The translations under genes and the position numbers were made by a program. A stretch of DNA of 64,000 nt from a virus: positions 1 to 64,000 of IMG/VR virus record IMGVR_UViG_3300045988_110343. One strand, 5' to 3'. Shown here one piece after another: positions 2,825 to 50,351 of this stretch. The notes beneath the pieces are model-generated. The model did not search any database, was not told where the DNA came from, and saw only the letters and a program-made list of their open reading frames with translations. The first letter of the stretch is position 1. The number at the start of each line of letters is the position of its first letter.

Positions 2825-2990
2825 TTTCTCACTCCTTCATATTTCATTTTCTTGAAGTTTACCTTTCATTTGTTGAATATAATATACCACTTCTTGCACA
2901 TAGTGTCAATACAAAATCTTCAACTTCTTGAATATTTTATTTTACATCCTGTATATAATATGTTACAATATAGATGTGGAGGTATATCAT

Positions 2991-3194
2991 ATGATAAGTT
3001 ATAAACCGCTTTTCGTAACTTTAGCGAAAAAGGGTATGACAAAATCTGATTTACGAACCGCTTTAAATATGGGGTCTGGTACAATTGCCAAGATGGCAAA
3101 GAATCAGTATATCAGTCTCGAAAACATTGACAAAATTTGCTTATATCTTGATTGCAAAGTTGAAGATGTTATCGAGGTCATACCAAACGATTAA
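2991..3194 (+). CDS. XRE-family helix-turn-helix transcriptional regulator
   Basis: 67 aa from the internal Met of the 2928..3194 ORF. HTH pattern LAKKGMTKSDLRTALNMGSGTIAKMAKNQ. Followed by a hairpin plus T-run. Confidence 0.7.
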   Translation: MISYKPLFVTLAKKGMTKSDLRTALNMGSGTIAKMAKNQYISLENIDKICLYLDCKVEDVIEVIPND

Positions 3195-3199
3195 CCAAA

Positions 3200-3232
3200 A
3201 AGACTTTAACCATTTAGGTTGAGGTCTTTTTT
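3200..3232 (+). terminator. rho-independent terminator after the HTH gene
   Basis: Stem AAGAC...GTCTT with an inner AACC/GGTT pairing, followed by TTTTTT. Confidence 0.45.
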
Positions 3233-3234
3233 AG

Positions 3235-3372
3235 TGGAAACAACAGGAATCGAACCTGTGTCGGCAATTTATATGTGATGAAAATTAAATGTAAATAAAT
3301 AAAAATACTTATATGGAGGTAGAAAAATGAATGTTTATGTATTGCCTGCTCTACCAACTGAGCTATGTTTCC
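3235..3372 (-). tRNA. tRNA gene with a ~67-nt insertion in the anticodon loop (split or intron-containing tRNA, or a disrupted tRNA)
   Basis: On the minus strand: acceptor GGAAACA/TGTTTCC (7 bp); D-arm GCTC-AGTTGGTA-GAGC; anticodon stem GGCAA/TTGCC; T-arm ACAGG-TTCGATT-CCTGT; discriminator A. The anticodon stem halves are separated by 74 nt instead of 7. Confidence 0.6.
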
Positions 3373-3502
3373 ATGACTGGCACTTTATACAACTATATAT
3401 AGTGGTTCAATAATTGGATAATCACTATATATTGTGTTTTATAGAGTCATAAAATGCCAGTTTTATGTTTGTGAAATTAATTTTTGTAGATGAATTTATT
3501 CG

Positions 3503-4237
3503 TTATTTGCGAGCATTTTTCATCTGATCTAATATGACTTTAGCTTCTTGCTGTCGCTCTTCTTGCTCCATATGATAATCCAATGTTTCTGCACTAGATT
3601 CATACGCAATAGCAACGCCTTTGGCTTGTTCGCTAAGTTTCTTTGCTCCTTCTCGAACCTCTTCCAAACCTTCCTGAGCAGCATTTGAACTATTGTATTG
3701 GTCTAAATTTTTCTGCAATTCTGCAATCTGCTGATCTGCTTCCATCTGGAGAACCACAGTATCTTTTTCACCTTTTAACTTAATGAGCTGATCATATGCT
3801 TGGTTTTTAATTTCTTCTTGTTTATCTTTTGTCGCTTGCAACTCTGGGATTTTCTTTTCGTACACTGATTTCTGTGCCTTGAGCGTGGCTAATTTTTGAG
3901 CATAATACATTGCTTTTTTATCATCATTGTTATCAATATACTGGTTGATCATTGCCTCGGTTTTAGAAATTTCTTCTTTTGTTTCTTTGAGGTCATCTTC
4001 CATTGTTGCCAATCGACCAGCTACCATTGTGTATGTACCCATTGTTTTCTGGTAGAAATCCTGCTTATCTTTAATTGCAGTATTATATCTGGCTCTTGCT
4101 CCCTCTGGAGTCATTGCATTTTCTTTGATTTTTTCTGCAACTGTTCCAGATGCCACATTTTTAATCTGCTTTCCATTTTTAGTAAATTGTAAATATGCGA
4201 TAATCGCTACAATTACACAAATAATAATAATTGTCAT
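3503..4237 (-). CDS. membrane-anchored coiled-coil protein (PspA/IM30-like?)
   Basis: 244 aa. N-terminal TM helix, then a long K/E/Q-rich coiled coil. Immediately downstream of the flotillin gene. Confidence 0.4.
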   Translation of the reverse strand: MTIIIICVIVAIIAYLQFTKNGKQIKNVASGTVAEKIKENAMTPEGARARYNTAIKDKQDFYQKTMGTYTMVAGRLATMEDDLKETKEEISKTEAMINQYIDNNDDKKAMYYAQKLATLKAQKSVYEKKIPELQATKDKQEEIKNQAYDQLIKLKGEKDTVVLQMEADQQIAELQKNLDQYNSSNAAQEGLEEVREGAKKLSEQAKGVAIAYESSAETLDYHMEQEERQQEAKVILDQMKNARK

Positions 4238-6131: not shown

Positions 6132-7094
6132 TTAATTTCCTAATGCAATTAATGAATTTCCACATGTAATTCTGTCTGCGTCTTCTTCTTTCGATGGAAC
6201 AAATACAATTACATCCCAACCGTCTTTTACAAGTGGTTGTTCAAATTTTTCATATACGTCAAAATCTGTTACAATCTCATATCCTTCGTCAACTGCTTCA
6301 ACTGTTTCATGGATAGGAGTAATCTTTACAATGCATTTTTCCTTATCGAAATACTTGTTCATCAAATCTACGTCTAAATTACTTTTGGACGTAACAGCAA
6401 AATTCAATGTGTACTTACGCTTCTTTGGCATTGGCAACCAATCAATAATGCCTCCGATCTCTGTTAAAGATAATGAACATCCTCGAAACATTTCATTTCT
6501 TTGTTCTTCATTAAGAGTATTGATAGAGAACTGAAGACCAAAGCCATCTTCTCCACCATATTCGAATCCAGTTTTAACCCATTTATGTAAAAATTCTTTT
6601 AAATTATTATTTGCCTTTGGCATCATTGTAGAAATTACTGGATGATATGTGTTGAAATGTATATCACTGTCTGGATCTGCTAACATATGTGCAATCTGTT
6701 TAGCCGAAGCAATTACATTTTGATTAAATGTAGGCTCTCCCATTCTTGCATAATGTACATTTAATCGTTCTCCATGTCTGATTCCTGATAAAGCAATTCC
6801 AGAAGTGATCTCCATCATTAACTCTGGCAACGATGCGTTTCCTTTAAATCCAAGTTTAGGGCAATCACAGAAATTGCAATGCATCGGACAACCTTTCTGC
6901 GACGAAACAGTCACAACTAATTTTTCTCTAATATCAACTGGTTTATGTTCAACTTTTTCAATTCGTTTATCATACCCAAGAAAATCTGCCTTAATGTTGT
7001 TTTCCTTGCCATAATCACCAACGAATAAGTATTCTAATGTTAAATCTGTATCGGAGATAATTTCTCCTGTATGTGTGTCTGTAATCTGTCTCAT
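6132..7094 (-). CDS. radical SAM enzyme, COG1533/spore-photoproduct-lyase-like
   Basis: 320 aa. CPMHCNFC (CX3CX2C) cluster, MGEPT glycine-rich motif, and an FSIN block resembling SplB. Confidence 0.6.
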   Translation of the reverse strand: MRQITDTHTGEIISDTDLTLEYLFVGDYGKENNIKADFLGYDKRIEKVEHKPVDIREKLVVTVSSQKGCPMHCNFCDCPKLGFKGNASLPELMMEITSGIALSGIRHGERLNVHYARMGEPTFNQNVIASAKQIAHMLADPDSDIHFNTYHPVISTMMPKANNNLKEFLHKWVKTGFEYGGEDGFGLQFSINTLNEEQRNEMFRGCSLSLTEIGGIIDWLPMPKKRKYTLNFAVTSKSNLDVDLMNKYFDKEKCIVKITPIHETVEAVDEGYEIVTDFDVYEKFEQPLVKDGWDVIVFVPSKEEDADRITCGNSLIALGN

Positions 7095-8699: not shown

Positions 8700-9725
8700 T
8701 TATGTCATAATTTGATGTACACGATAATTCTTATAGTCCTCATCTTTATATAAATAACCAATAGTTTTACCAATTACAGTTTGACGATCACTAAATTGTT
8801 TCTTTTTTAATCTATATGATATATAATAATTATAATAAAATTCAATTGCAATTTCACTAAATTGACGTGCGATTATAGATCGTGCGATTCCTTCTTTTGA
8901 TTTAATATAATATAAATCTGCAATTGCCTTGATATCCATTTTAGATTTTAAATATTGTATAAAACCAGAATTAATAACATCAATGGTTGTCAATTTCTCA
9001 TAAGATAAAGTGTTACCAGTTAATTCTAATTGAGACTGCACATTATTATATATCCTCTTTTGCTCTGCTTGATATTCTTCTATATTATTACATTTTTTTC
9101 GTGGTATTAATACAAAATCATCATATATATTCGTATCTCCCATTTTCAATTTATATTCATTCAATGTCTCGATAAAATCTTTGGAGACTGGTTTCCCAAA
9201 AATTGTTAAATCATTTTGATTAATATCTGAGAATTTTAGATTTCTTAACTCCTTTCCATTTATCCCGTTATATAAACTCACAATATGAAATCTAGTATTC
9301 AATTTGGTATCGGCTGATGCATTGCACGACATCAGATTCGAAATAAACGCATTTATTTTATCTGGTGTAACATAATTAACATTAACTCTATTTGAAAAAT
9401 ATATATCAACTGCTAATTGCAAGTTTATAAATTTATCATTAACAAATGGATTATATTTAATGTAATTTTGTTCATATGCATAAGTATATAGTTTAACGAG
9501 CTGGTCATATCTTTTTTTAATAGAATTCATACTTTTGGTTTTTTTACCTCTAGTATCTGATAATATAGCCTCTTGGATTGTACCTGGTGCATACGTTAAC
9601 CCAGATTCATTGTCGTCCGCAATATCAGAATCTAACAACCAATTCCATGTTGGGCGACGTGATTCTGATACGTGAGAATCTATATAATTTTGTATCAATT
9701 CTTTATTATTCATAATATTCTCCAT
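8700..9725 (-). CDS. hypothetical protein; candidate partner of the PemK/MazF-like gene
   Basis: 341 aa, N/Y/K-rich with AT-rich codon usage. Begins 3 nt after the MazF-like ORF, suggesting one operon. Confidence 0.5.
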   Translation of the reverse strand: MENIMNNKELIQNYIDSHVSESRRPTWNWLLDSDIADDNESGLTYAPGTIQEAILSDTRGKKTKSMNSIKKRYDQLVKLYTYAYEQNYIKYNPFVNDKFINLQLAVDIYFSNRVNVNYVTPDKINAFISNLMSCNASADTKLNTRFHIVSLYNGINGKELRNLKFSDINQNDLTIFGKPVSKDFIETLNEYKLKMGDTNIYDDFVLIPRKKCNNIEEYQAEQKRIYNNVQSQLELTGNTLSYEKLTTIDVINSGFIQYLKSKMDIKAIADLYYIKSKEGIARSIIARQFSEIAIEFYYNYYISYRLKKKQFSDRQTVIGKTIGYLYKDEDYKNYRVHQIMT

Positions 9726-9727
9726 TT

Positions 9728-10177
9728 CTAGGATGCCATTGCATTCATGTACGATAACATGCCGTTTTGTATTAAAATGCCATGTCCTATTTTTAACATT
9801 AAAGATAGATCAGATATTCTTCCCCAATACTCTAAAAGATTATTCTTTGGAATTGTTCTTCCTTGCTCTAAATACACCTGTGATACAATTTTTAATCCAT
9901 TACTGGTATTTGGATAAATGGTTACATGTGTCGGTATCCAGTTCCTTAATTTTTTTGTAATTGGATACACGTTAATCTCTGTGCTCGTATTATTACAAAT
10001 ATTATTAGAATATACGATGATTGGTCTTTTCCCATGCAAGATATGACTACCTTCAATTTTCGGCAAATCTGCAAAATATATTCCCCAAACTTGAGGATTT
10101 TGATATTTGCCATATACATATTCTTTTCTTTTTCTGTTATCGTTTCCTTTTCTTTCTTTGTTAGTATATCCGTTCAT
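9728..10177 (-). CDS. PemK/MazF-family toxin-like protein
   Basis: Motifs GKRPIIVYSN, TEINVYPITKK and GLKIVSQVYLEQGRTIPK fit the PemK/MazF fold. Start placed at the internal Met, which has a GAGGGA RBS downstream of the predicted promoter; the track ORF starts at 10237. Confidence 0.55.
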   Translation of the reverse strand: MNGYTNKERKGNDNRKRKEYVYGKYQNPQVWGIYFADLPKIEGSHILHGKRPIIVYSNNICNNTSTEINVYPITKKLRNWIPTHVTIYPNTSNGLKIVSQVYLEQGRTIPKNNLLEYWGRISDLSLMLKIGHGILIQNGMLSYMNAMAS

Positions 10178-10224
10178 TTTTACGTCCCTCAACTTTCCCC
10201 AGTTGCATTTTTTGTTTTCATGAA

Positions 10225-10266
10225 TTAAATATACCATACTTTTTGCACCCTGTCAATAGGTGCAAG
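10225..10266 (-). promoter_or_regulatory. sigma70-like promoter with a palindromic operator (TGCACC-N9-GGTGCA)
   Basis: Minus strand reads TTGACA-17-TGgTATATT. The palindrome at 10244..10264 overlaps the -35. A near-identical 27-nt element recurs at 33661..33697. Confidence 0.55.
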
Positions 10267-10337
10267 AAAGAAAGTTAATTTTTATTGTAAACAAAGAATC
10301 TCTACATTTCTTATTATAATGCTACTATAGAACAAAA

Positions 10338-10658
10338 TCAAGATATTTTTCGAACAAATGTTCTCTTTTTGTTCGAACACTTCACTTTTCGTTTGCTTGG
10401 AAGTGGAAAATACTGTCTGACCTGATGTGGTTTGTCTAATCTCCACTTCTTTTCCTCAAAGTCATAGTCGCAAAAATCAAGCACTTCGTCCACACATCCA
10501 TCATTATATTTGTAATCCACGATTACAGGATATGTTTTATATCTCATATAACGTGATGCGTTATCTGGTTTTAGCGGTGGAATATCTGCTGAAATCCACA
10601 TAAGATTCTGGTTTACTTTCTTTTCTTCTTTATTTTGTCTAATTGTATTTATCTTCAT
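10338..10658 (-). CDS. hypothetical protein
   Basis: 106-aa ORF. Confidence 0.45.
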   Translation of the reverse strand: MKINTIRQNKEEKKVNQNLMWISADIPPLKPDNASRYMRYKTYPVIVDYKYNDGCVDEVLDFCDYDFEEKKWRLDKPHQVRQYFPLPSKRKVKCSNKKRTFVRKIS

Positions 10659-10670
10659 ACAAAATTCTCC

Positions 10671-11417
10671 TTATGAAATCCTAATTATCTGTTCGTAAAT
10701 TGCAATCGCATTATCTTCTGGGAAATTCTGGTTCACATGCATATGCCCAAAGAACCACTTTCTATATTCGACAGATTCTTTGATCTCTTGCAAATAATCC
10801 GTCAATATATCTGTTTTATATAGTCCTGCTCCGCCATCCATTTGTCTTAAAGCAGACGTGTACGGACTGTGTGTGATTATATAATCTACTTGTAGTCCAT
10901 TCTTCTTCAGATTCATTACACCTTCTACCATTTCTTCCTCTGAAGGAAGTTCTTCTTTCCACCATGATATATGATTAATGCGAAACATTTTATCGTAATC
11001 TCTATACCACTCATTAATTCTTGGATCGTTTTGCTCTAAAATCCCATCCTGAACATCGTGAGAACTAGCTCCACCAAACGTAAAGAATCTCTTTCCCTGG
11101 ATATCAAATATCTGCCCTCGCATGAGATGAAAAATAGAATCACGAATCTTATGAACCTTTCCGCCATTCCATTCTTCTACAGGATATTCGTACAGCCGAT
11201 CATAATTTTCATGGTTCCCACATACAAACAAAGTAGTAAATGGTTTGTTATCTAACCATTCCAGATTATATCGTTCTTCTTTTGTGTCATGCCACAGTCC
11301 AAAATCTCCGCAGATAATCACATAATCATCTTTGGTTAACTCAACTCCCTCTGGGAAAGAACGACTGTTTAATCGAGTCATCCAATCCCCATGTGTATCT
11401 CCTGTTACAAATATCAT
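10671..11417 (-). CDS. calcineurin-like metallophosphoesterase
   Basis: 248 aa. Motifs GDTHGD, GDFGLW, GNHE and GHMH. Confidence 0.8.
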   Translation of the reverse strand: MIFVTGDTHGDWMTRLNSRSFPEGVELTKDDYVIICGDFGLWHDTKEERYNLEWLDNKPFTTLFVCGNHENYDRLYEYPVEEWNGGKVHKIRDSIFHLMRGQIFDIQGKRFFTFGGASSHDVQDGILEQNDPRINEWYRDYDKMFRINHISWWKEELPSEEEMVEGVMNLKKNGLQVDYIITHSPYTSALRQMDGGAGLYKTDILTDYLQEIKESVEYRKWFFGHMHVNQNFPEDNAIAIYEQIIRIS

Positions 11418-12364
11418 ACAATTACTCCTTCCAATAACTCTTCTAATGCCTGCATATTATCTTCATGTACTCTATCATCTTGATCTGCATCATCTTTGCC
11501 AGTCTTATAAGCAAACTTGATAATCTCCATAACTCTATCATAACTCACATTAACAACATTTTCCTTCAATCCGTTAAAAGCCCCACTGATAATTTCCTTG
11601 TATGTCTGCGCAATATCATCAAACAATACATGAGTTTCTTCCTCTGTGATTGTTGCATACAGAAATGTCATTGCAGGGCTACTATGATTCAATAATCTCA
11701 TAAGTGTATACAATACGTTCTGATCATCTTTATGATCGACAAGTGTCCAATACACAAAGTTCTTTCGTAATGTATGCGTACCAATATTGTCCTCAATTCC
11801 AACTGCTTTAGCACCTTTTTTAACAAAATCCAAAGCATTTGCTTCAGTCATGTGTCCTGATCCAGACTTACATGTTCCAAAAACATAATCATCCATTGGC
11901 ACTTCGCCATCAATCTTGACATCATATTTAGTTCCTGCAACAGCTTCAAAGAAAATATCCACTGCTTCAGTTACCAAATCGTTAAAGTATACAGTTCTGA
12001 ATTTCTTTGTTTTCTTTTCCTGTTTACGAGTCTTATCGTCTAATAAATCGCCCCATTTGAGTCTAACAATATCAGAGATACGATATGCTGTATTGTTTCC
12101 AACTGTAACCAAAAGATTGTTTCTGGCAGCTACATATCGTTTGTACTCTGTGTACGATTTATCAATCTGGTCTCTAAAATATGCATTAAAGGCTGCAAAT
12201 TGTTTTCTGTCCTTGATCGGATACACTAAAGATGATACGCCTTTTTGTTTGTTAGATCGAGTCCATTTAGGACTTCCATCCTTACGTCTTTTAATCTTTG
12301 TTTCAGATTCTTCTGCGTTATTATTGTTTACTGTTTCAATAACTTCAAACTGTGTTGCTGCCAT
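11414..12364 (-). CDS. int: tyrosine-type site-specific recombinase / phage integrase
   Basis: 316 aa. Box motifs AYRISDIVRLKW (Arg), GTHTLRKNF (HxxR) and NHSSPAMTFLYA (catalytic Tyr). Confidence 0.8.
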   Translation of the reverse strand: MAATQFEVIETVNNNNAEESETKIKRRKDGSPKWTRSNKQKGVSSLVYPIKDRKQFAAFNAYFRDQIDKSYTEYKRYVAARNNLLVTVGNNTAYRISDIVRLKWGDLLDDKTRKQEKKTKKFRTVYFNDLVTEAVDIFFEAVAGTKYDVKIDGEVPMDDYVFGTCKSGSGHMTEANALDFVKKGAKAVGIEDNIGTHTLRKNFVYWTLVDHKDDQNVLYTLMRLLNHSSPAMTFLYATITEEETHVLFDDIAQTYKEIISGAFNGLKENVVNVSYDRVMEIIKFAYKTGKDDADQDDRVHEDNMQALEELLEGVIV

Positions 12365-23746: not shown

Positions 23747-24205
23747 CTATTCTTCATAATTTTCTAAATCCCAATGTTCTTTTAAAAGCTGGATCGCAAA
23801 CTCAGGATATCCCATAAAATAATAACTATCGTATACTGATTCTATCTGATCTTCATCCCAGCTTTCGTCATCATATCCATTTTCGTCTGCCCACGTTTCA
23901 AAATCCATTGCCGTTTTCTGAAAATCTTTAACCTTATTACTAATCCGTTGCAAGTCATTCTCTTCAATCGTGATTAAAGGTTTTCCATAATCATCGTAAA
24001 GATCTTCCCATAAGTCGTTGTTCCATTGTGACTTTGGCTCGTGTTGGATATAAATGTTTGTTAATCCATTTACATTCCAGCCCGTTGTAGCAACTAATTT
24101 TCCAGTTTCTTTCTCTACGCCATAAAACATTCCAGGTTTTACACAAAATCCACCATAAGAGGCGTGTCTGAAGTGTTCAGGTAAGATCAATTCTTTGAAC
24201 TCGTA
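23747..24205 (-). CDS. hypothetical protein
   Basis: Start moved to the Met with a GAAGGA RBS; the longer track ORF (to 24340) would read through the tRNA-like fragment. Confidence 0.45.
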   Translation of the reverse strand, partial: YEFKELILPEHFRHASYGGFCVKPGMFYGVEKETGKLVATTGWNVNGLTNIYIQHEPKSQWNNDLWEDLYDDYGKPLITIEENDLQRISNKVKDFQKTAMDFETWADENGYDDESWDEDQIESVYDSYYFMGYPEFAIQLLKEHWDLENYEE

Positions 24206-24284
24206 CATAATTTCCTTCTTTCTGCCTATCAGGACTTTAAATATTAATAGTTTTCCTTTATTATACACGATAATTTCCATCGTG

Positions 24285-24313
24285 AAAAGTAGCGAGGGCG
24301 GAATTGAACCGCC
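24285..24313 (-). other. tRNA 3'-half fragment (T-arm plus acceptor 3' strand); possible att-core remnant
   Basis: Minus strand reads CAGGCGG-TTCAATT-CCGCC-CTCGCTA. No matching 5' acceptor strand or anticodon arm lies upstream. Confidence 0.4.
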
Positions 24314-24339
24314 TGATAAAAGCACTCTTTTATCTACCA

Positions 24340-24445
24340 TACGCCACCGTTTTTCCGTTCCAATACGTCACTACTAGCAATCAGTAGTACAGTTTTTCCG
24401 TTCATTTAAAGTAACTATTAGCTTCAATAGTCCAGTATTTCCGTT
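24340..24445 (-). repeat. three tandem ~44-bp units: conserved AACGGAAA(A/T)AC motif followed by variable 6-7-bp hairpins
   Basis: Plus-strand TTTTCCGTT at 24342, 24386 and 24429. Each unit has a different perfect palindrome: ACTACT/AGTAGT, ACTATT/AATAGT, TACTCAT/ATGAGTA. Confidence 0.6.
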
Positions 24446-28287: not shown

Positions 28288-28836
28288 CTAATTTAAAATT
28301 GAAATGTAGCCGTTGAATGCTTTAGAATTAACATACCAACCATACATATTCATTTCACGTCCATATTTTTCATAATCAAAATAATCTGATACGTTTGTTG
28401 GAATATTTTCAAGTAGTCCAGCATCTTCTACATAACGATAAGCTAAATCTTTCATACTGTTACAATCTGCATAGATAATATAATTACCATTTTCTACAAT
28501 GGCAAACGCTTCATCTAAGCTTGACGTTTCTGAACTAATTTCATTAAATACAGTTCTTTCTTCATCTGAAAGTTCTGCATAGCGTTCTCCGATTTCCTGA
28601 AGCCTTGAAAGTGGTGTGTATTCTCCCAACTCCGTTGTATCAAACTCTGCATCATAATCAGCAACAAAATATTCTTCATACTCTGCACCAATACCGATTT
28701 CTTTCAAGATGTTTTTGATTTCGTCTTCATCAGCAAGTGGGAAATTTACAGCTTTATCAATGATTTCTCCTTCATTGTATTTCCCTAAGTTTGTAACCCA
28801 TGCTGTAAAACCGTCTTTATTTGTGTTCGTGTTCAT
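28288..28836 (-). CDS. ardA: antirestriction protein ArdA-like
   Basis: 182 aa, acidic. N-terminal AWVTNLGKYNEGEIIDKAVNFPLADEDEIKNILKEIG follows the ArdA pattern (LG.YNEG..G.W.D...D.EE). Confidence 0.6.
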   Translation of the reverse strand: MNTNTNKDGFTAWVTNLGKYNEGEIIDKAVNFPLADEDEIKNILKEIGIGAEYEEYFVADYDAEFDTTELGEYTPLSRLQEIGERYAELSDEERTVFNEISSETSSLDEAFAIVENGNYIIYADCNSMKDLAYRYVEDAGLLENIPTNVSDYFDYEKYGREMNMYGWYVNSKAFNGYISILN

Positions 28837-48605: not shown

Positions 48606-50351
48606 ATGGATATTTTAGATATAGACTTCGATGAAGTGAACAAACGTATGGCTCAAAGAGCCAGTGAATTGGGAGTTCAAGATATAGATCCTTCAGAAGA
48701 TACCATAGATTACGAAGCATGGACAAAATTCTTTTCTTATTATCGGTATTACATCGATGATTTTGCAACAGATATTTTAGGGATCGAACTCTTTCCTTTT
48801 CAAAGAGTTATATTGAGAGCAATGGCAAGAGGGCAAATGTCAGTATTGATTGCATGTCGTGGACTCGGTAAGTCATGGATCGTAGCCGTCTTCTATATTT
48901 GCATCTCGATATTATATCCAAATGTCAAATGTGGAATTGCTTCAGGAAGTAACCAACAGGCTAGAAACGTAATTATTCAGAAAATTAAGGGTGAGTTAAT
49001 CAAGAATGGAACTATCGCAAAAGAGATAGTTATGCCAATTCATACTTCTCCTGATGATTGTTATGTTGAATTTAATGGTGGCGGTGAAATTCGTGCCATT
49101 ACTGTTGCACAAGATCGTGGTGGAGAATCTGCTCGTTCCTGGCGTTTTAATTATTTATTGATTGATGAAGCTCGTCTGGTTAAAGATGATATCATTGAAA
49201 CAATTTTGATTCCTATGACAAAAACCAAACGTCAAAATGCTTTAAAATGGCACAAAAATGAAAAGGGTAAAGTTATTTTTATCTCTTCTGCTTATCTGAA
49301 AACAAGCGGATTATACAAGAGATTTAAATATCATTTTGAGCAAATGTGCTCTGGGAACAAGAGGTATGTTGCAATTTGTTTCCCTTATCAAGTTGGTGTA
49401 CAAGCTGGTCTTTTTGATATGGAAGACATTGAGCAAGAGTTATCTAAACCTTCTATGACAAAAGACAAATTCGCTTATGAATATGAGGGAATTTTCGTTG
49501 GTTCCAGCGGAGAAAGTTATTACCCATATGAACTTACAATGCCTTGTAGAAAACTTGAATATGGCGAATCAGATCAACCTCGAAAATCTCAATCTATCTA
49601 TGTCATCACCCATGACGTAGCTGTATCTAATGAAAAGAATTCGGATAACGCATGTACTCATGTTATCAAACTGAAAATGAGACCAAATGGTACTTATACA
49701 AAATCTGTCGTGTATACAAAAGTCATGAATGGTATACCTTTGAATAAACAAAGAGATTTCTTAAGAGAACTCATTCATATACATTTCCCTAACACAAAGA
49801 AACTGGTTATAGATGATAACGGAGTTGGTGCAGGTTTACCAACAATGTTTTATGAAAGTTGGGAATATACAGATCCTAAAACGAAAAACACAGTAGAATA
49901 TCCGCCATTGATAAAAGACGATGATGAAGATGGATTTCTACTTGATAACGCAGTTCCATTAATTCGTGGTGTTCATGCGTCAAATGAATTTCATAAAACA
50001 TTCTATCCTTACATGAAATCATGCTTCGAGGATAGATCTCTTGAATTACTATCAACCTCTGAAGAAGTTGACTCTCTGTATAAGAACGGAGAGATTACTG
50101 CGGAACAATACGCACAGCATGTAGAGCATGACATCTTGCAGAGTGAATTAAGCAATATTAAGATGGATTATTCTGAACATGGAAATGTTCAATATGTTCG
50201 TATTGTCAAGGGGCAAAAGAGAGATAGAGCTACTTCTCTTTGTTATGGATTATCTGTTATTTATGAATGGGAAGAAGAAAATAGATACACATTATTTAAC
50301 AATAATAAAAGTCATGGTTATGACTTACTTAATGAATATACATATGTTTAA
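48606..50351 (+). CDS. terL: terminase large subunit
   Basis: 581 aa. Walker A-like ACRGLGKS, then an acidic nuclease-like C-terminal half. Packed head-to-tail with the portal gene. Confidence 0.7.
   Translation: MDILDIDFDEVNKRMAQRASELGVQDIDPSEDTIDYEAWTKFFSYYRYYIDDFATDILGIELFPFQRVILRAMARGQMSVLIACRGLGKSWIVAVFYICISILYPNVKCGIASGSNQQARNVIIQKIKGELIKNGTIAKEIVMPIHTSPDDCYVEFNGGGEIRAITVAQDRGGESARSWRFNYLLIDEARLVKDDIIETILIPMTKTKRQNALKWHKNEKGKVIFISSAYLKTSGLYKRFKYHFEQMCSGNKRYVAICFPYQVGVQAGLFDMEDIEQELSKPSMTKDKFAYEYEGIFVGSSGESYYPYELTMPCRKLEYGESDQPRKSQSIYVITHDVAVSNEKNSDNACTHVIKLKMRPNGTYTKSVVYTKVMNGIPLNKQRDFLRELIHIHFPNTKKLVIDDNGVGAGLPTMFYESWEYTDPKTKNTVEYPPLIKDDDEDGFLLDNAVPLIRGVHASNEFHKTFYPYMKSCFEDRSLELLSTSEEVDSLYKNGEITAEQYAQHVEHDILQSELSNIKMDYSEHGNVQYVRIVKGQKRDRATSLCYGLSVIYEWEEENRYTLFNNNKSHGYDLLNEYTYV

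What the first reader, a model, noticed from the sequence alone, without database searches (positions are those of the whole stretch)
3235..3372. Intact four-arm tRNA interrupted by a ~67-nt insertion in the anticodon loop
On the minus strand every canonical tRNA helix pairs perfectly: acceptor GGAAACA/TGTTTCC, D GCTC/GAGC, anticodon stem GGCAA/TTGCC and T-arm ACAGG-TTCGATT-CCTGT.

The two anticodon-stem halves are 74 nt apart instead of 7. At 67 nt the insert is too short for a group I intron, and bacterial tRNAs are not known to carry archaeal-type bulge-helix-bulge (BHB) introns.

No split of the 74 nt gives a canonical U33 loop.

The insert also carries a GGAGGT RBS plus ATG on the opposite strand, opening a 32-codon ORF antisense to the tRNA.

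This could be a phage-encoded split tRNA needing unusual processing, a novel short tRNA intron, or a tRNA inactivated by a small insertion.
Basis: seen in the sequence. Interest (0 to 1): 0.75.

Follow-up and report, generated by a model that had tools for sequence, protein, structure and literature searches.

The report
Phage tRNA with a conserved 74-nt loop
A family of large human-gut phages keeps a perfectly tRNA-shaped gene whose 7-base anticodon loop is replaced by a 74-base structureless stretch. That stretch is conserved as tightly as the tRNA itself and shows no known splicing signal, so it is most likely a tRNA-shaped regulatory or decoy RNA rather than an ordinary tRNA, a classical intron or a dead gene.

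Summary
The feature is real. Rfam's tRNA model hits window 3235-3372(-) at 46.4 bits (threshold 29), and all four helices pair as described, with the anticodon-stem halves 74 nt apart.

Two details are wrong:
- A U33 split does exist. ARAGORN with introns calls U32|67 nt|U33-AUA-AA.
- The antisense ORF is 28 aa, not 32 codons. Indels break its frame in relatives, so it is not a gene.

The element is single-copy in more than 50 related ~160-kb gut-phage contigs. No insert-free allele exists in the viral, genome or metagenome collections.

Within one recombination block, substitution-variable sites are 17% in the exons and 16% in the insert, against 40% at third codon positions. Both exons and insert are therefore under purifying selection, which argues against a pseudogene.

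The insert (U35 A26 C12 G1) is unstructured. It has no bulge-helix-bulge motif and no ribozyme or group I signature. No splicing endonuclease or RNA ligase was found among the 46 ORFs scanned against Pfam in the window.

Best reading (about 0.4): a non-decoding tRNA-shaped RNA that displays a functional single-stranded loop with an anti-Shine-Dalgarno-like UACCUCC core.

Main rival (about 0.25): a protein-spliced intron at position 37/38 of a CAU tRNA.

The function is not demonstrated and no target was found.

The parts
3235..3372 (-). Whole tRNA-shaped gene (138 nt): 5' half, 74-nt expanded loop, 3' half. No encoded CCA.
   Evidence: Rfam RF00005 46.4 bits. ARAGORN -i call. MFE and consensus folds give a cloverleaf.
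3342..3372 (-). 5' half, tRNA positions 1-31: acceptor 5' strand, U8, D arm with G18G19, A26, anticodon-stem 5' strand GGCAA.
   Evidence: Sequence. Substitution-variable sites 4/31, pi 0.010. Pairing counts.
3268..3341 (-). 74-nt expanded 'anticodon loop' (equivalent to a 67-nt insert plus 7 loop nt). Composition U35 A26 C12 G1. No predicted structure.
   Evidence: Composition, MFE -2.2 kcal/mol and no BHB. No conserved structure. 12/74 substitution-variable sites, against 40% at codon position 3.
3336..3341 (-). UACAUA: invariant first six loop nucleotides, a former CAU anticodon loop with A33. Family indels begin immediately 3' of it, at the 37/38 position.
   Evidence: Alignment A1. Closest local tRNAs are CAU tRNAs.
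3315..3321 (-). UACCUCC: anti-Shine-Dalgarno-like core, the only C-rich block of the loop.
   Evidence: Nearly invariant in 19 variants, with one C>U and one A>G. Mild generic pairing to phage start regions, 6% of shuffles do as well.
3235..3267 (-). 3' half: anticodon-stem 3' strand TTGCC, 3-nt variable loop GAC, T arm, acceptor 3' strand, A73.
   Evidence: Sequence. 7/33 substitution-variable sites. G.U-preserving changes.
3384..3410 (-). Promoter-like TTGAAC-15 nt-TATAAA ending 11 nt before tRNA +1. This is an inference only.
   Evidence: Read from the sequence. Most family variants keep TATAAA, TATAAT or TACAAT at this distance despite two unrelated upstream forms. NOT called by the consensus scan because of the 15-nt spacer.
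3196..3233 (.). Hairpin plus T/A runs between the tRNA and the convergent HTH gene. Strong terminator on + (-18.5 kcal/mol, U6), weaker on the tRNA strand (-12 kcal/mol, U5).
   Evidence: Folds of both strands. Family changes keep pairing on the + strand.
3327..3413 (+). Antisense 28-aa ORF behind GGAGGT. Not a conserved gene.
   Evidence: Length 9-46 aa in 41 loci, frame broken in 11.
2991..3194 (+). Convergent neighbour: 67-aa XRE/Cro-type HTH regulator. A real gene, given as context.
   Evidence: Codon-position periodicity, 28/88 variable sites at position 3 against 7/88 at position 2. Weak PHROG repressor hits. Sequence.

Best explanation
The locus encodes a tRNA-shaped non-coding RNA that no longer decodes.

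The tRNA body is intact and selected. It comprises the acceptor stem, the D/T elbow with all tertiary-contact nucleotides, and a 5-6 bp anticodon stem. It most likely serves as a processing and stability module, through RNase P at the 5' end, 3' trimming and CCA addition, and a nuclease-resistant fold.

In place of the 7-nt anticodon loop, the anticodon stem presents a 74-nt G-poor, structure-free, sequence-constrained single strand. This strand is retained in the mature RNA and is the working part. The most likely mode of action is base-pairing through its C-rich UACCUCC core and AU-rich flanks, either to Shine-Dalgarno/start regions or to read-through antisense transcripts from the convergent HTH gene. 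Acting as a single-stranded decoy for an RNA-binding protein or endoribonuclease is the alternative.

SHOWN: the cloverleaf, its maintenance across the phage family, purifying selection on both the body and the loop, and the absence of known splice signals.

INFERRED: expression, processing, retention of the loop, and the pairing or decoy mechanism. No target has been identified.
For: - Cloverleaf at 46.4 bits with canonical U8, A14, G18G19, G53T54T55C56, A58, and a G15/C48 pair.
- Present as a single copy in all 41 close syntenic loci and in 52 contigs overall, with a 70-78 nt loop.
- 99.5% of stem cells are paired, against 26-51% for slid controls. All 6 one-sided changes are G.U-preserving.
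- Substitution-variable sites are 11/64 in the exons and 12/74 in the insert (P = 1 between them), against 81/202 at third codon positions of the two adjacent genes (P = 8e-4 and 1.6e-4). The adjacent intergenic stretch has 31/103.
- The insert has no structure and no BHB motif, and no Rfam ribozyme or intron hit.
- No insert-free allele exists in the viral, GTDB-genome or metagenome collections.
- No splicing endonuclease or RNA ligase was found among the 46 window ORFs scanned against Pfam.
- The 3-nt variable loop and A33 would be odd for a decoding tRNA.
- The same genome has a second non-canonical tRNA-shaped element at 24289-24374.
- Distant relatives carry acceptor/T-arm mimics with a variable middle downstream of the homologous gene.
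- Established precedent, from my own knowledge: phage P1/P7 c4 and P4 CI immunity RNAs are RNase-P-processed and act through loop pairing with ribosome-binding regions. Engineered 'tRNA scaffolds' stabilise RNAs inserted at the anticodon stem (PMC3753655 surfaced; not read).
Against: - No target was found. The best duplex with 81 phage start regions is no better than shuffled inserts achieve (24% of shuffles do as well). The longest complementary run anywhere in the window is 12 nt, which is typical of shuffles.
- The single 24-nt antisense match to a Lachnospiraceae gene start is a one-off. It is absent from metagenomes and sits on a frame-disrupted gene.
- The family is shallow and mosaic, so there are no compensatory double changes.
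- One contig (L004) has two broken acceptor pairs.
- Loop nucleotides 32-37 are invariant and indels start exactly at 37/38, which fits an intron equally well.
- Only 64 kb of a ~160-kb genome could be inspected for enzymes.
- There is no expression data.
- Part of the constraint on the insert could act on the other strand or on the DNA.
Confidence: 0.4

Rival explanations
1. It is a genuine intron-containing pre-tRNA. A 67-nt intron sits at the canonical 37/38 position of a CAU (Met or Ile2-type) tRNA, and is removed by proteins rather than by self-splicing. A sequence- or structure-specific endoribonuclease would leave 2',3'-cyclic-phosphate and 5'-OH ends, and an RtcB-type ligase from host or phage would join them. 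This would be a new kind of tRNA intron for a bacterial virus.
For: - The cloverleaf is complete, including a maintained anticodon stem (3 of 5 pairs show G.U-preserving changes).
- Loop nucleotides UACAUA (32-37) are invariant apart from one variant. Family indels begin exactly after position 37, and the nucleotide before UUGCC is always A, so every variant could yield loop UACAUAA.
- The nearest local tRNAs are CAU tRNAs sharing the acceptor, T stem and A73.
- ARAGORN also finds a U33-containing split.
- The phage encodes a MazF/PemK-family endoribonuclease at 9728-10237 and a beta-CASP RNA nuclease at 43570-45000.
- UACAU, which I recall as the Firmicute MazF site, occurs twice in the insert and ACAU four times (P about 0.04 and 0.002, post hoc).
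Against: - No BHB motif, no ribozyme or group I signature, and no RNA ligase or EndA-like protein among the 46 ORFs scanned against Pfam.
- The spliced loop would carry A33 instead of the near-universal U33. The alternative split gives an A34 'AUA' anticodon. The variable loop is 3 nt.
- Cutting at the UACAU/ACAU sites would not regenerate a 7-nt loop (inference from the sequence).
- UACAU is not avoided in phage transcripts, 114 observed against 113 expected.
- The insert is as constrained as the exons, which is unlike protein-spliced introns.
- No intron-less allele exists anywhere.
Confidence: 0.25
2. It is a disabled tRNA: a CAU tRNA gene hit in its anticodon loop by a recombination or integration event that left a scar. 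Its RNA has no function. The apparent conservation reflects recent common ancestry or hitch-hiking within a recombination block.
For: - Anticodon loops are classic integrase crossover sites (established knowledge), and two integrase-family genes lie 5-9 kb away.
- The insert starts with ACAUAAA and ends with ACAUAUAAA.
- It carries an orphan RBS plus ATG with no conserved ORF.
- The high-identity block extends about 1 kb beyond the tRNA in the 74% tier.
- One contig has two acceptor mismatches.
Against: - Within the same block, third-codon positions vary at 40% of sites, against 17% in the exons and 16% in the insert. Intergenic flanks vary at 30-37%.
- Stem changes are G.U-compatible in 6 of 8 cases.
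- The terminal repeat is not significant (P = 0.05-0.13).
- The insert is not repeated elsewhere in the window or in other genomic contexts.
Confidence: 0.15
3. The constrained element works on the other strand or as DNA. One option is that the conserved GGAGG-N7-10-ATG is a real ribosome-loading site on plus-strand read-through transcripts from the convergent HTH gene, acting as a leader or mini-ORF whose peptide does not matter. The other is that the repeated ACAT motifs are protein-binding sites in a lysogeny-switch region, with the tRNA halves incidental.
For: - SD plus ATG at good spacing is kept in all variants even though the frame is not.
- A 24-nt identity exists to a bona fide gene start in a Lachnospiraceae MAG.
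- The locus abuts an XRE/Cro-type gene with divergent promoter-like sites.
- ACAT/CAT enrichment.
Against: - It does not explain selection on the D arm, T arm and acceptor, or the G.U-preserving changes, which would be C.A mismatches on the plus strand.
- A strong plus-strand terminator (-18.5 kcal/mol plus U6) lies between the HTH gene and the insert.
- The motif enrichment is post hoc and would not survive multiple-testing correction.
Confidence: 0.1

Closest known systems
Canonical bacterial/phage tRNA (Rfam RF00005), in particular CAU-anticodon tRNAs (Met / Ile2) of gut phages
   Same: All four helices, tertiary-contact nucleotides and A73 are present. The acceptor and T stem are nearly identical to CAU tRNAs in contigs L129, L136, L218 and L221.
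   Different: 74 nt instead of a 7-nt anticodon loop. The loop-like start has A33. The variable loop is 3 nt. It cannot decode as encoded.
Archaeal/eukaryal protein-spliced tRNA introns (bulge-helix-bulge, position 37/38)
   Same: The insert position is compatible with 37/38. The length of 67 nt is within the eukaryotic range. Canonical-position tRNA-Tyr introns are present on viral contigs, two of them giant-virus contigs (L132, L174).
   Different: No BHB motif. No EndA or ligase seen. A bacterial (Shine-Dalgarno-using) host. The insert is as conserved as the exons.
Group I introns in bacterial tRNA anticodon loops (cyanobacteria; Patescibacteria, PMC13011429 title and abstract)
   Same: An insertion in the anticodon loop of a bacterial-type tRNA gene that standard annotation misses.
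   Different: 67-74 nt with a single G. No P1-P9 core, no terminal G, no Rfam hit. No intron-less alleles.
Phage immunity antisense RNAs with tRNA-like, RNase-P-processed precursors (P1/P7 c4 RNA, P4 CI RNA; from my own knowledge)
   Same: A small phage RNA near lysogeny-type genes. A tRNA-like fold usable by RNase P. A single-stranded segment complementary to Shine-Dalgarno-type sequence.
   Different: No Rfam C4 hit. A full canonical cloverleaf rather than a loose resemblance. No complementary target found in the 64 kb available.
Engineered 'tRNA scaffold' RNAs (foreign RNA inserted at the anticodon stem for stable expression in bacteria; PMC3753655 surfaced, not read)
   Same: The same architecture: a tRNA body with the payload replacing the anticodon loop.
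   Different: Those are artificial. A natural phage counterpart has not, to my knowledge, been described.
tmRNA and YrlA/Y-RNA tRNA mimics
   Same: tRNA-like acceptor/T-arm module joined to a non-tRNA functional module.
   Different: No G3.U70, no pseudoknots, no conserved tag ORF, and a full D arm (unlike tmRNA). Not circularly permuted with a Ro-binding stem (unlike YrlA). ARAGORN finds no tmRNA.

Membership tests
tRNA (RF00005) | Cloverleaf with acceptor, D, anticodon and T helices scoring above the curated threshold | tested here: met
   46.4 bits against gathering score 29. 21 pairs, 99.5% of cells paired across variants.
tRNA (RF00005) | 7-nt anticodon loop with U33 and a purine at 37, allowing decoding | tested here: not met
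   As encoded the loop is 74 nt. Only hypothetical splicing restores 7 nt, giving either A33-CAU or U33-AUA.
tRNA (RF00005) | Variable region of 4-5 nt (class I) | tested here: not met
   GAC, 3 nt, between TTGCC and the T stem. The Rfam alignment is uncertain there.
BHB (archaeal/eukaryal) tRNA intron | Bulge(3)-helix(4)-bulge(3) motif at the exon-intron junctions | tested here: not met
   0 motifs in the anticodon arm, against a mean of 0.66 in 300 shuffles.
BHB (archaeal/eukaryal) tRNA intron | Splicing endonuclease (EndA/Sen) and RNA ligase available | tested here: inconclusive
   None among the 46 window ORFs scanned against Pfam. About 100 kb of the phage and the host genome could not be examined.
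Group I intron | Conserved catalytic core (P3-P9), usually >= 200 nt, terminal G | tested here: not met
   67-74 nt, one G, MFE -2.2 kcal/mol, no Rfam hit at E <= 1.
Small self-cleaving ribozymes (hammerhead, twister, HDV-like, etc.) | Match to the curated covariance models | tested here: not met
   A permissive Rfam scan of 3100-3500 returns only tRNA.
tmRNA | tRNA-like domain with G3.U70 plus a tag reading frame and pseudoknots | tested here: not met
   ARAGORN tmRNA search negative. Pair 3:70 is A-U. Indels shift every frame in the insert.
c4/CI-type phage antisense RNA | Rfam C4 model match, and complementarity to a target ribosome-binding region in the same phage | tested here: not met
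   No C4 hit. No above-chance complementarity in the window. The rest of the genome was not available.
Mobile repeat / MITE insertion | Multiple copies, terminal inverted repeats, target-site duplication | tested here: not met
   Single copy in the window and one per contig in 52 contigs. The terminal direct repeat is not significant.
Protein-coding small gene (antisense ORF) | Reading frame conserved among relatives | tested here: not met
   Length 9-46 aa, frameshifts in 11 of 41 loci.

The most novel reading that the evidence does not exclude
A natural 'tRNA scaffold': a bacteriophage uses an intact tRNA body to process, stabilise and display a 74-nt single-stranded effector segment with an anti-Shine-Dalgarno-like core. 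The segment acts on host or phage translation, or decoys a tRNA- or RNA-targeting nuclease. This would be a class of phage regulatory or anti-defence RNA not yet described. The equally novel alternative is a protein-dependent, non-BHB tRNA intron in a bacterial virus.
Probability: 0.35. Interest if true: 0.8.

Novelty: new variant of a known kind. Interest (0 to 1): 0.6.

Why it matters
Phage tRNAs are currently being reinterpreted as counter-defence tools against anticodon nucleases (titles and abstracts of PMC10264068, PMC11464382 and PMC11555353, seen). An abundant gut-phage lineage keeps a tRNA body under selection while replacing the decoding loop with a constrained single strand. That points to a function beyond decoding.

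If the loop is retained, this would be a natural counterpart of the engineered tRNA scaffold and a new type of phage small RNA. If it is spliced, it would be the first short, non-ribozyme, non-BHB tRNA intron in a bacterial system.

Either outcome can be tested directly with one RNA-seq or Northern experiment. The case also shows that standard tRNA annotation silently misses such genes, since default ARAGORN did not call it.

Tried and rejected
1. **GenBank phage relatives.** No near DNA match. A distant search hit only a T-arm. The flanking protein reaches only Bacillus phage G at 25% identity.
2. **Antisense ORF as a gene.** Rejected because the frame is not conserved.
3. **BHB intron, group I intron, ribozymes.** Rejected.
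4. **Mobile repeat.** Rejected, the insert is single-copy.
5. **Insert-free or parental tRNA.** None in viral, genome or metagenome collections.
6. **Trans-target search in the window.** Nothing above shuffles.
7. **Host-target lead.** One exact 24-mer match to a Lachnospiraceae AAA-ATPase gene start. It is not the phage, the gene is frame-disrupted, and the match is absent from metagenomes. Treated as coincidence or at most a lead.
8. **MazF link.** The UACAU/ACAU enrichment is only nominal and post hoc, and the motif is not avoided in phage transcripts. Speculation only.
9. **Integration-scar terminal repeat.** Not significant.
10. **Functional link to the upstream 244-aa gene.** It is a TM plus coiled-coil protein with no RNA-related family or structural hit. 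Dropped.
11. **Syntenic tRNA-like elements in the 36-38% tier.** Seen by eye in L042 and L045 but not detectable with Rfam. Synteny rests on one gene only, so this is weak support.
12. **Conservation as evidence on its own.** The genomes are mosaics and the high-identity block extends beyond the tRNA. I therefore used within-block codon-position controls instead.
13. **Literature.** Four full-text searches found no description of a long anticodon-loop insert in a phage tRNA.

Full report

The conserved tertiary nucleotides are present: U8, A14, G18G19, A21, G53-T54-T55-C56, A58, and the G15/C48 pair.

Rfam's tRNA covariance model hits exactly these coordinates at 46.4 bits (gathering score 29; E = 9.6e-07 over the whole 64-kb window), despite the penalty for an 81-nt insertion. 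Default ARAGORN does not report it.

Two sub-claims fail:
- With introns allowed, ARAGORN calls tRNA(ata) with a 67-nt intron after position 32. So a split giving U32-U33-AUA-A37-A38 exists.
- The antisense ORF behind GGAGGT (3315-3320) is 3327-3413(+), 28 aa, not 32 codons.

The 3-nt variable loop (GAC) is a further oddity.

**2. What genome is this?**

Flanking ORFs match PHROG families, and a T4-type large terminase lies at 48606-50351. No GenBank phage is close.

IMG/VR holds about 50 near relatives of 140-170 kb from human-gut samples. Genes at 1-30 kb run on the minus strand and genes from about 30.6 kb run on the plus strand. A normal array of 10 tRNAs lies at 41824-43316(+). 50 of 81 start regions carry a Shine-Dalgarno motif, so the host is an SD-using bacterium.

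The split tRNA lies alone in the minus-strand region:
- Upstream is a TM plus coiled-coil protein at 3503-4237.
- Downstream, on the opposite strand and converging on it, is a 67-aa XRE/Cro-type HTH gene (2991-3194). It is real by codon-position periodicity.
- A hairpin at 3196-3233 separates them. It is a strong terminator on the plus strand (-18.5 kcal/mol, U6) and a weaker one on the tRNA strand (-12 kcal/mol, U5).
- A TTGAAC-15-TATAAA promoter-like pair ends 11 nt before tRNA +1. Most variants keep a TATAAA, TATAAT or TACAAT box there although the upstream sequence comes in two unrelated forms. The consensus scan does not call it, so the independent promoter is an inference.
- Two integrase-family genes, a MazF/PemK toxin and ArdA lie within 25 kb.

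**3. Conservation**

All 41 syntenic loci whose flanking protein is 74-99% identical carry both tRNA halves, 70-78 nt apart. The insert core is single-copy in 52 viral contigs, always in this context. It has no second copy in the window.

Nineteen distinct tRNA-plus-insert sequences exist. On the cloverleaf, 99.5% of cells are paired, against 26-51% when partners are slid. Six one-sided changes all give G.U. Two cells are broken, both in one contig. There are no compensatory double changes. RNAalifold returns the cloverleaf and nothing inside the insert.

The genomes are recombination mosaics, and the high-identity block runs about 1 kb past the tRNA. Raw identity therefore proves little.

**4. 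Selection, with internal controls**

Across 37 haplotypes of the same block, the fraction of substitution-variable sites is:

| Region | Variable sites | Percent |
|---|---|---|
| Exons | 11/64 | 17% |
| Insert | 12/74 | 16% |
| Third codon positions of the two adjacent genes | 81/202 | 40% |
| Neighbouring intergenic stretch | 31/103 | 30% |

Fisher tests give exons vs position 3 P = 8e-4, insert vs position 3 P = 1.6e-4, and insert vs exons P = 1. One search gives the corresponding pi values: 0.010 and 0.026 for the exons, and 0.120 for position 3.

Most of the insert's extra variability is indels in A/T runs. So the tRNA body is not decaying, and the insert sequence is itself constrained. 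It argues against a pseudogene or scar, and also against a freely evolving, disposable intron.

**5. Is it an intron of a known kind?**

- The insert is U35 A26 C12 G1 with an MFE of -2.2 kcal/mol. A brute-force search for helix-bulge(3)-helix(4)-bulge(3)-helix finds 0 motifs, against 0.66 in shuffles.
- A permissive Rfam scan of the locus returns only tRNA: no group I or II intron and no small ribozyme.
- No insert-free allele or spliced-like copy exists in IMG/VR, in 185,579 GTDB species genomes (with a pattern that forced the 3-nt variable loop), or in JGI metagenome contigs.
- No tRNA has the same acceptor and D arm with a different anticodon stem.
- 46 window ORFs were scanned against Pfam, with NCBIfam and PHROGs used on subsets. 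None is an RNA ligase, polynucleotide kinase or EndA-type endonuclease.
- RNA nucleases are present: a MazF/PemK toxin (9728-10237) and a beta-CASP/RMMBL enzyme right after the tRNA array (43570-45000).

**6. What speaks for an intron anyway**

The first six loop nucleotides, UACAUA, are invariant except for one A35G variant. Family indels begin exactly after them, and the base before UUGCC is always A. Every variant could therefore yield a 7-nt loop U-A-CAU-A-A by excision at the canonical 37/38 site.

Among 831 tRNAs extracted from all sequence held locally, the closest to the exons are CAU tRNAs of unrelated ~77-kb gut phages. They share 6 of 7 acceptor positions with a compensated 7:66 pair, an identical T stem and A73. 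The ancestor was therefore probably a CAU (Met/Ile2-type) tRNA. A33 and the 3-nt variable loop would nevertheless be unusual in a working decoder.

**7. Tests of a retained, functional loop**

- The only C-rich block, UACCUCC (3315-3321), is anti-Shine-Dalgarno-like and nearly invariant.
- Duplex energies with 81 phage start regions show only a mild generic effect (6% of shuffled inserts match the mean energy) and no specific target (24% of shuffles match the best duplex).
- The longest complementary run elsewhere in the window is 12 nt, as in shuffles.
- A scan of GTDB genomes for the 24-nt core found one hit. It is the reverse complement of the SD-spacer-ATG of an AAA_14-type ATPase gene in a Lachnospiraceae MAG. 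That contig is not the phage. The gene is frame-disrupted there, and the non-phage context is absent from metagenomes. I treat it as a coincidence, or at most a hint to the host.
- ACAU occurs four times, CAU seven times and UACAU twice in 74 nt (nominal P = 0.002, 0.001 and 0.04). This is post hoc, and UACAU is not avoided in phage transcripts.
- The terminal near-repeat ACAUAAA / ACAUAUAAA is not significant.

**8. Other tRNA-shaped oddities**

- The window holds a second cryptic tRNA-like element at 24289-24374(-). It has a 7-bp acceptor, a perfect T arm and a long extra hairpin. It scores 22 bits against tRNA-Sec (sub-threshold) and folds with z = -2.9.
- In phages whose homologue of the upstream gene is only about 38% identical, a 57-nt acceptor/T-arm mimic without an anticodon arm (L042) follows that gene. 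The same ends with about 78 extra AU-rich nucleotides occur in L045, L046 and L074.
- These are not detected by Rfam and synteny rests on one gene, so they are weak support. They do fit the picture that the middle of tRNA mimics in these phages is expandable.
- A pattern scan also showed that many unrelated viral contigs carry single tRNAs with 45-75-nt inserts of several different kinds. None resembles this insert.

**9. Verdict**

The antisense ORF is not a gene, and 'inactivated tRNA' is disfavoured by the selection data.

I favour a non-decoding tRNA-shaped RNA that displays a constrained single-stranded loop (0.4). The alternatives are a novel protein-spliced 37/38 intron of a CAU tRNA (0.25), a recent scar (0.15) and an other-strand or DNA-level function (0.1). 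The remainder covers anything else.

No literature precedent for such an insert in a phage tRNA was found. The function is not shown. One RNA-level experiment would decide between the models.

Noticed in passing
window 24289-24374 (-): Second cryptic tRNA-shaped element: acceptor GTAGTGA/TCGCTAC, T arm GGCGG-TTCAATT-CCGCC, and a long extra hairpin. Sub-threshold tRNA-Sec hit (22 bits). Missed by ARAGORN. Overlaps the start of ORF 23747-24340.
   Followed up: partly
L129, L136, L146, L218, L221, L124, L150, L156, L167, L177, L181, L184, L190 (coordinates): Unrelated viral contigs carry single tRNAs (paired acceptor ends, standard D and T arms) with 45-60-nt inserts that share a 'GC hairpin + (A/C)CAGCAA + ~25 nt' pattern. 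A second group (L178, L196, L199, L203) shares 'CGTAC(A)ATAC...hairpin...GTTACTT'. The nature of both groups is unknown.
   Followed up: partly
L042 4081-4137; L045 4061-4195 (also L046, L074): About 350 nt downstream of the distant homologue of the 244-aa gene lies a 57-nt acceptor/T-arm mimic lacking an anticodon arm (L042). The same ends occur with about 78 extra AU-rich nucleotides forming two hairpins (L045). Neither is detected by Rfam.
   Followed up: partly
window 3376-3461 (-): An inverted repeat ACTGGCA...TGCCAGT lies just upstream of the tRNA. It encloses about 72 nt in the window form but only about 12 nt in other family members. The extra ~60 nt contains its own long hairpin (ATATATAGTG...CACTATATAT) and the TTGAAC/TATAAA promoter-like boxes.
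   Followed up: partly
L223 389-414 (Lachnospiraceae MAG CAKRWT010000014.1): The 24-nt insert core is the exact reverse complement of the SD-spacer-ATG region of an AAA_14-type ATPase gene, which is frame-disrupted there and sits beside an intact paralogue. Either chance resemblance of ribosome-binding regions, or a hint to a host or target.
   Followed up: partly
window 43570-45000 (+): A beta-CASP/RMMBL RNA-type metallo-nuclease (aCPSF1/Cas14-like, well below equivalog cut-offs) is encoded immediately after the 10-tRNA array. It is a candidate phage tRNA-processing enzyme.
   Followed up: no
window 8700-12364 (-): A cluster of an integrase-like gene (8700-9725), a MazF/PemK-family toxin (9728-10237), a metallophosphoesterase (10671-11417) and a tyrosine integrase-family gene (11414-12364). 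This suggests a temperate or plasmid-like lifestyle and a phage-borne toxin.
   Followed up: partly
window 2881-2969: Divergent promoter-like sites: minus strand TTGACA-17-TATATT (11/12 matches) and plus strand TTTACA-17-TACAAT (10/12). They lie between the XRE/Cro-type HTH gene and the next minus-strand operon, a layout like a genetic switch.
   Followed up: no
window 6132-7094 (-): A radical-SAM protein (phrog_24834) with weak similarity, limited to the core, to RlmN/Cfr RNA methyltransferases. It lies 3 kb from the split tRNA.
   Followed up: no
window 28288-28836 (-): ArdA anti-restriction protein (PF07275, E = 9e-30).
   Followed up: no
L132, L174 (giant-virus contigs); L217, L153: tRNA-Tyr(GUA) genes with canonical-position introns of 40-59 nt. 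L132 and L174 are on giant-virus (GVMAG) contigs. The eukaryote-type interpretation is my inference.
   Followed up: no
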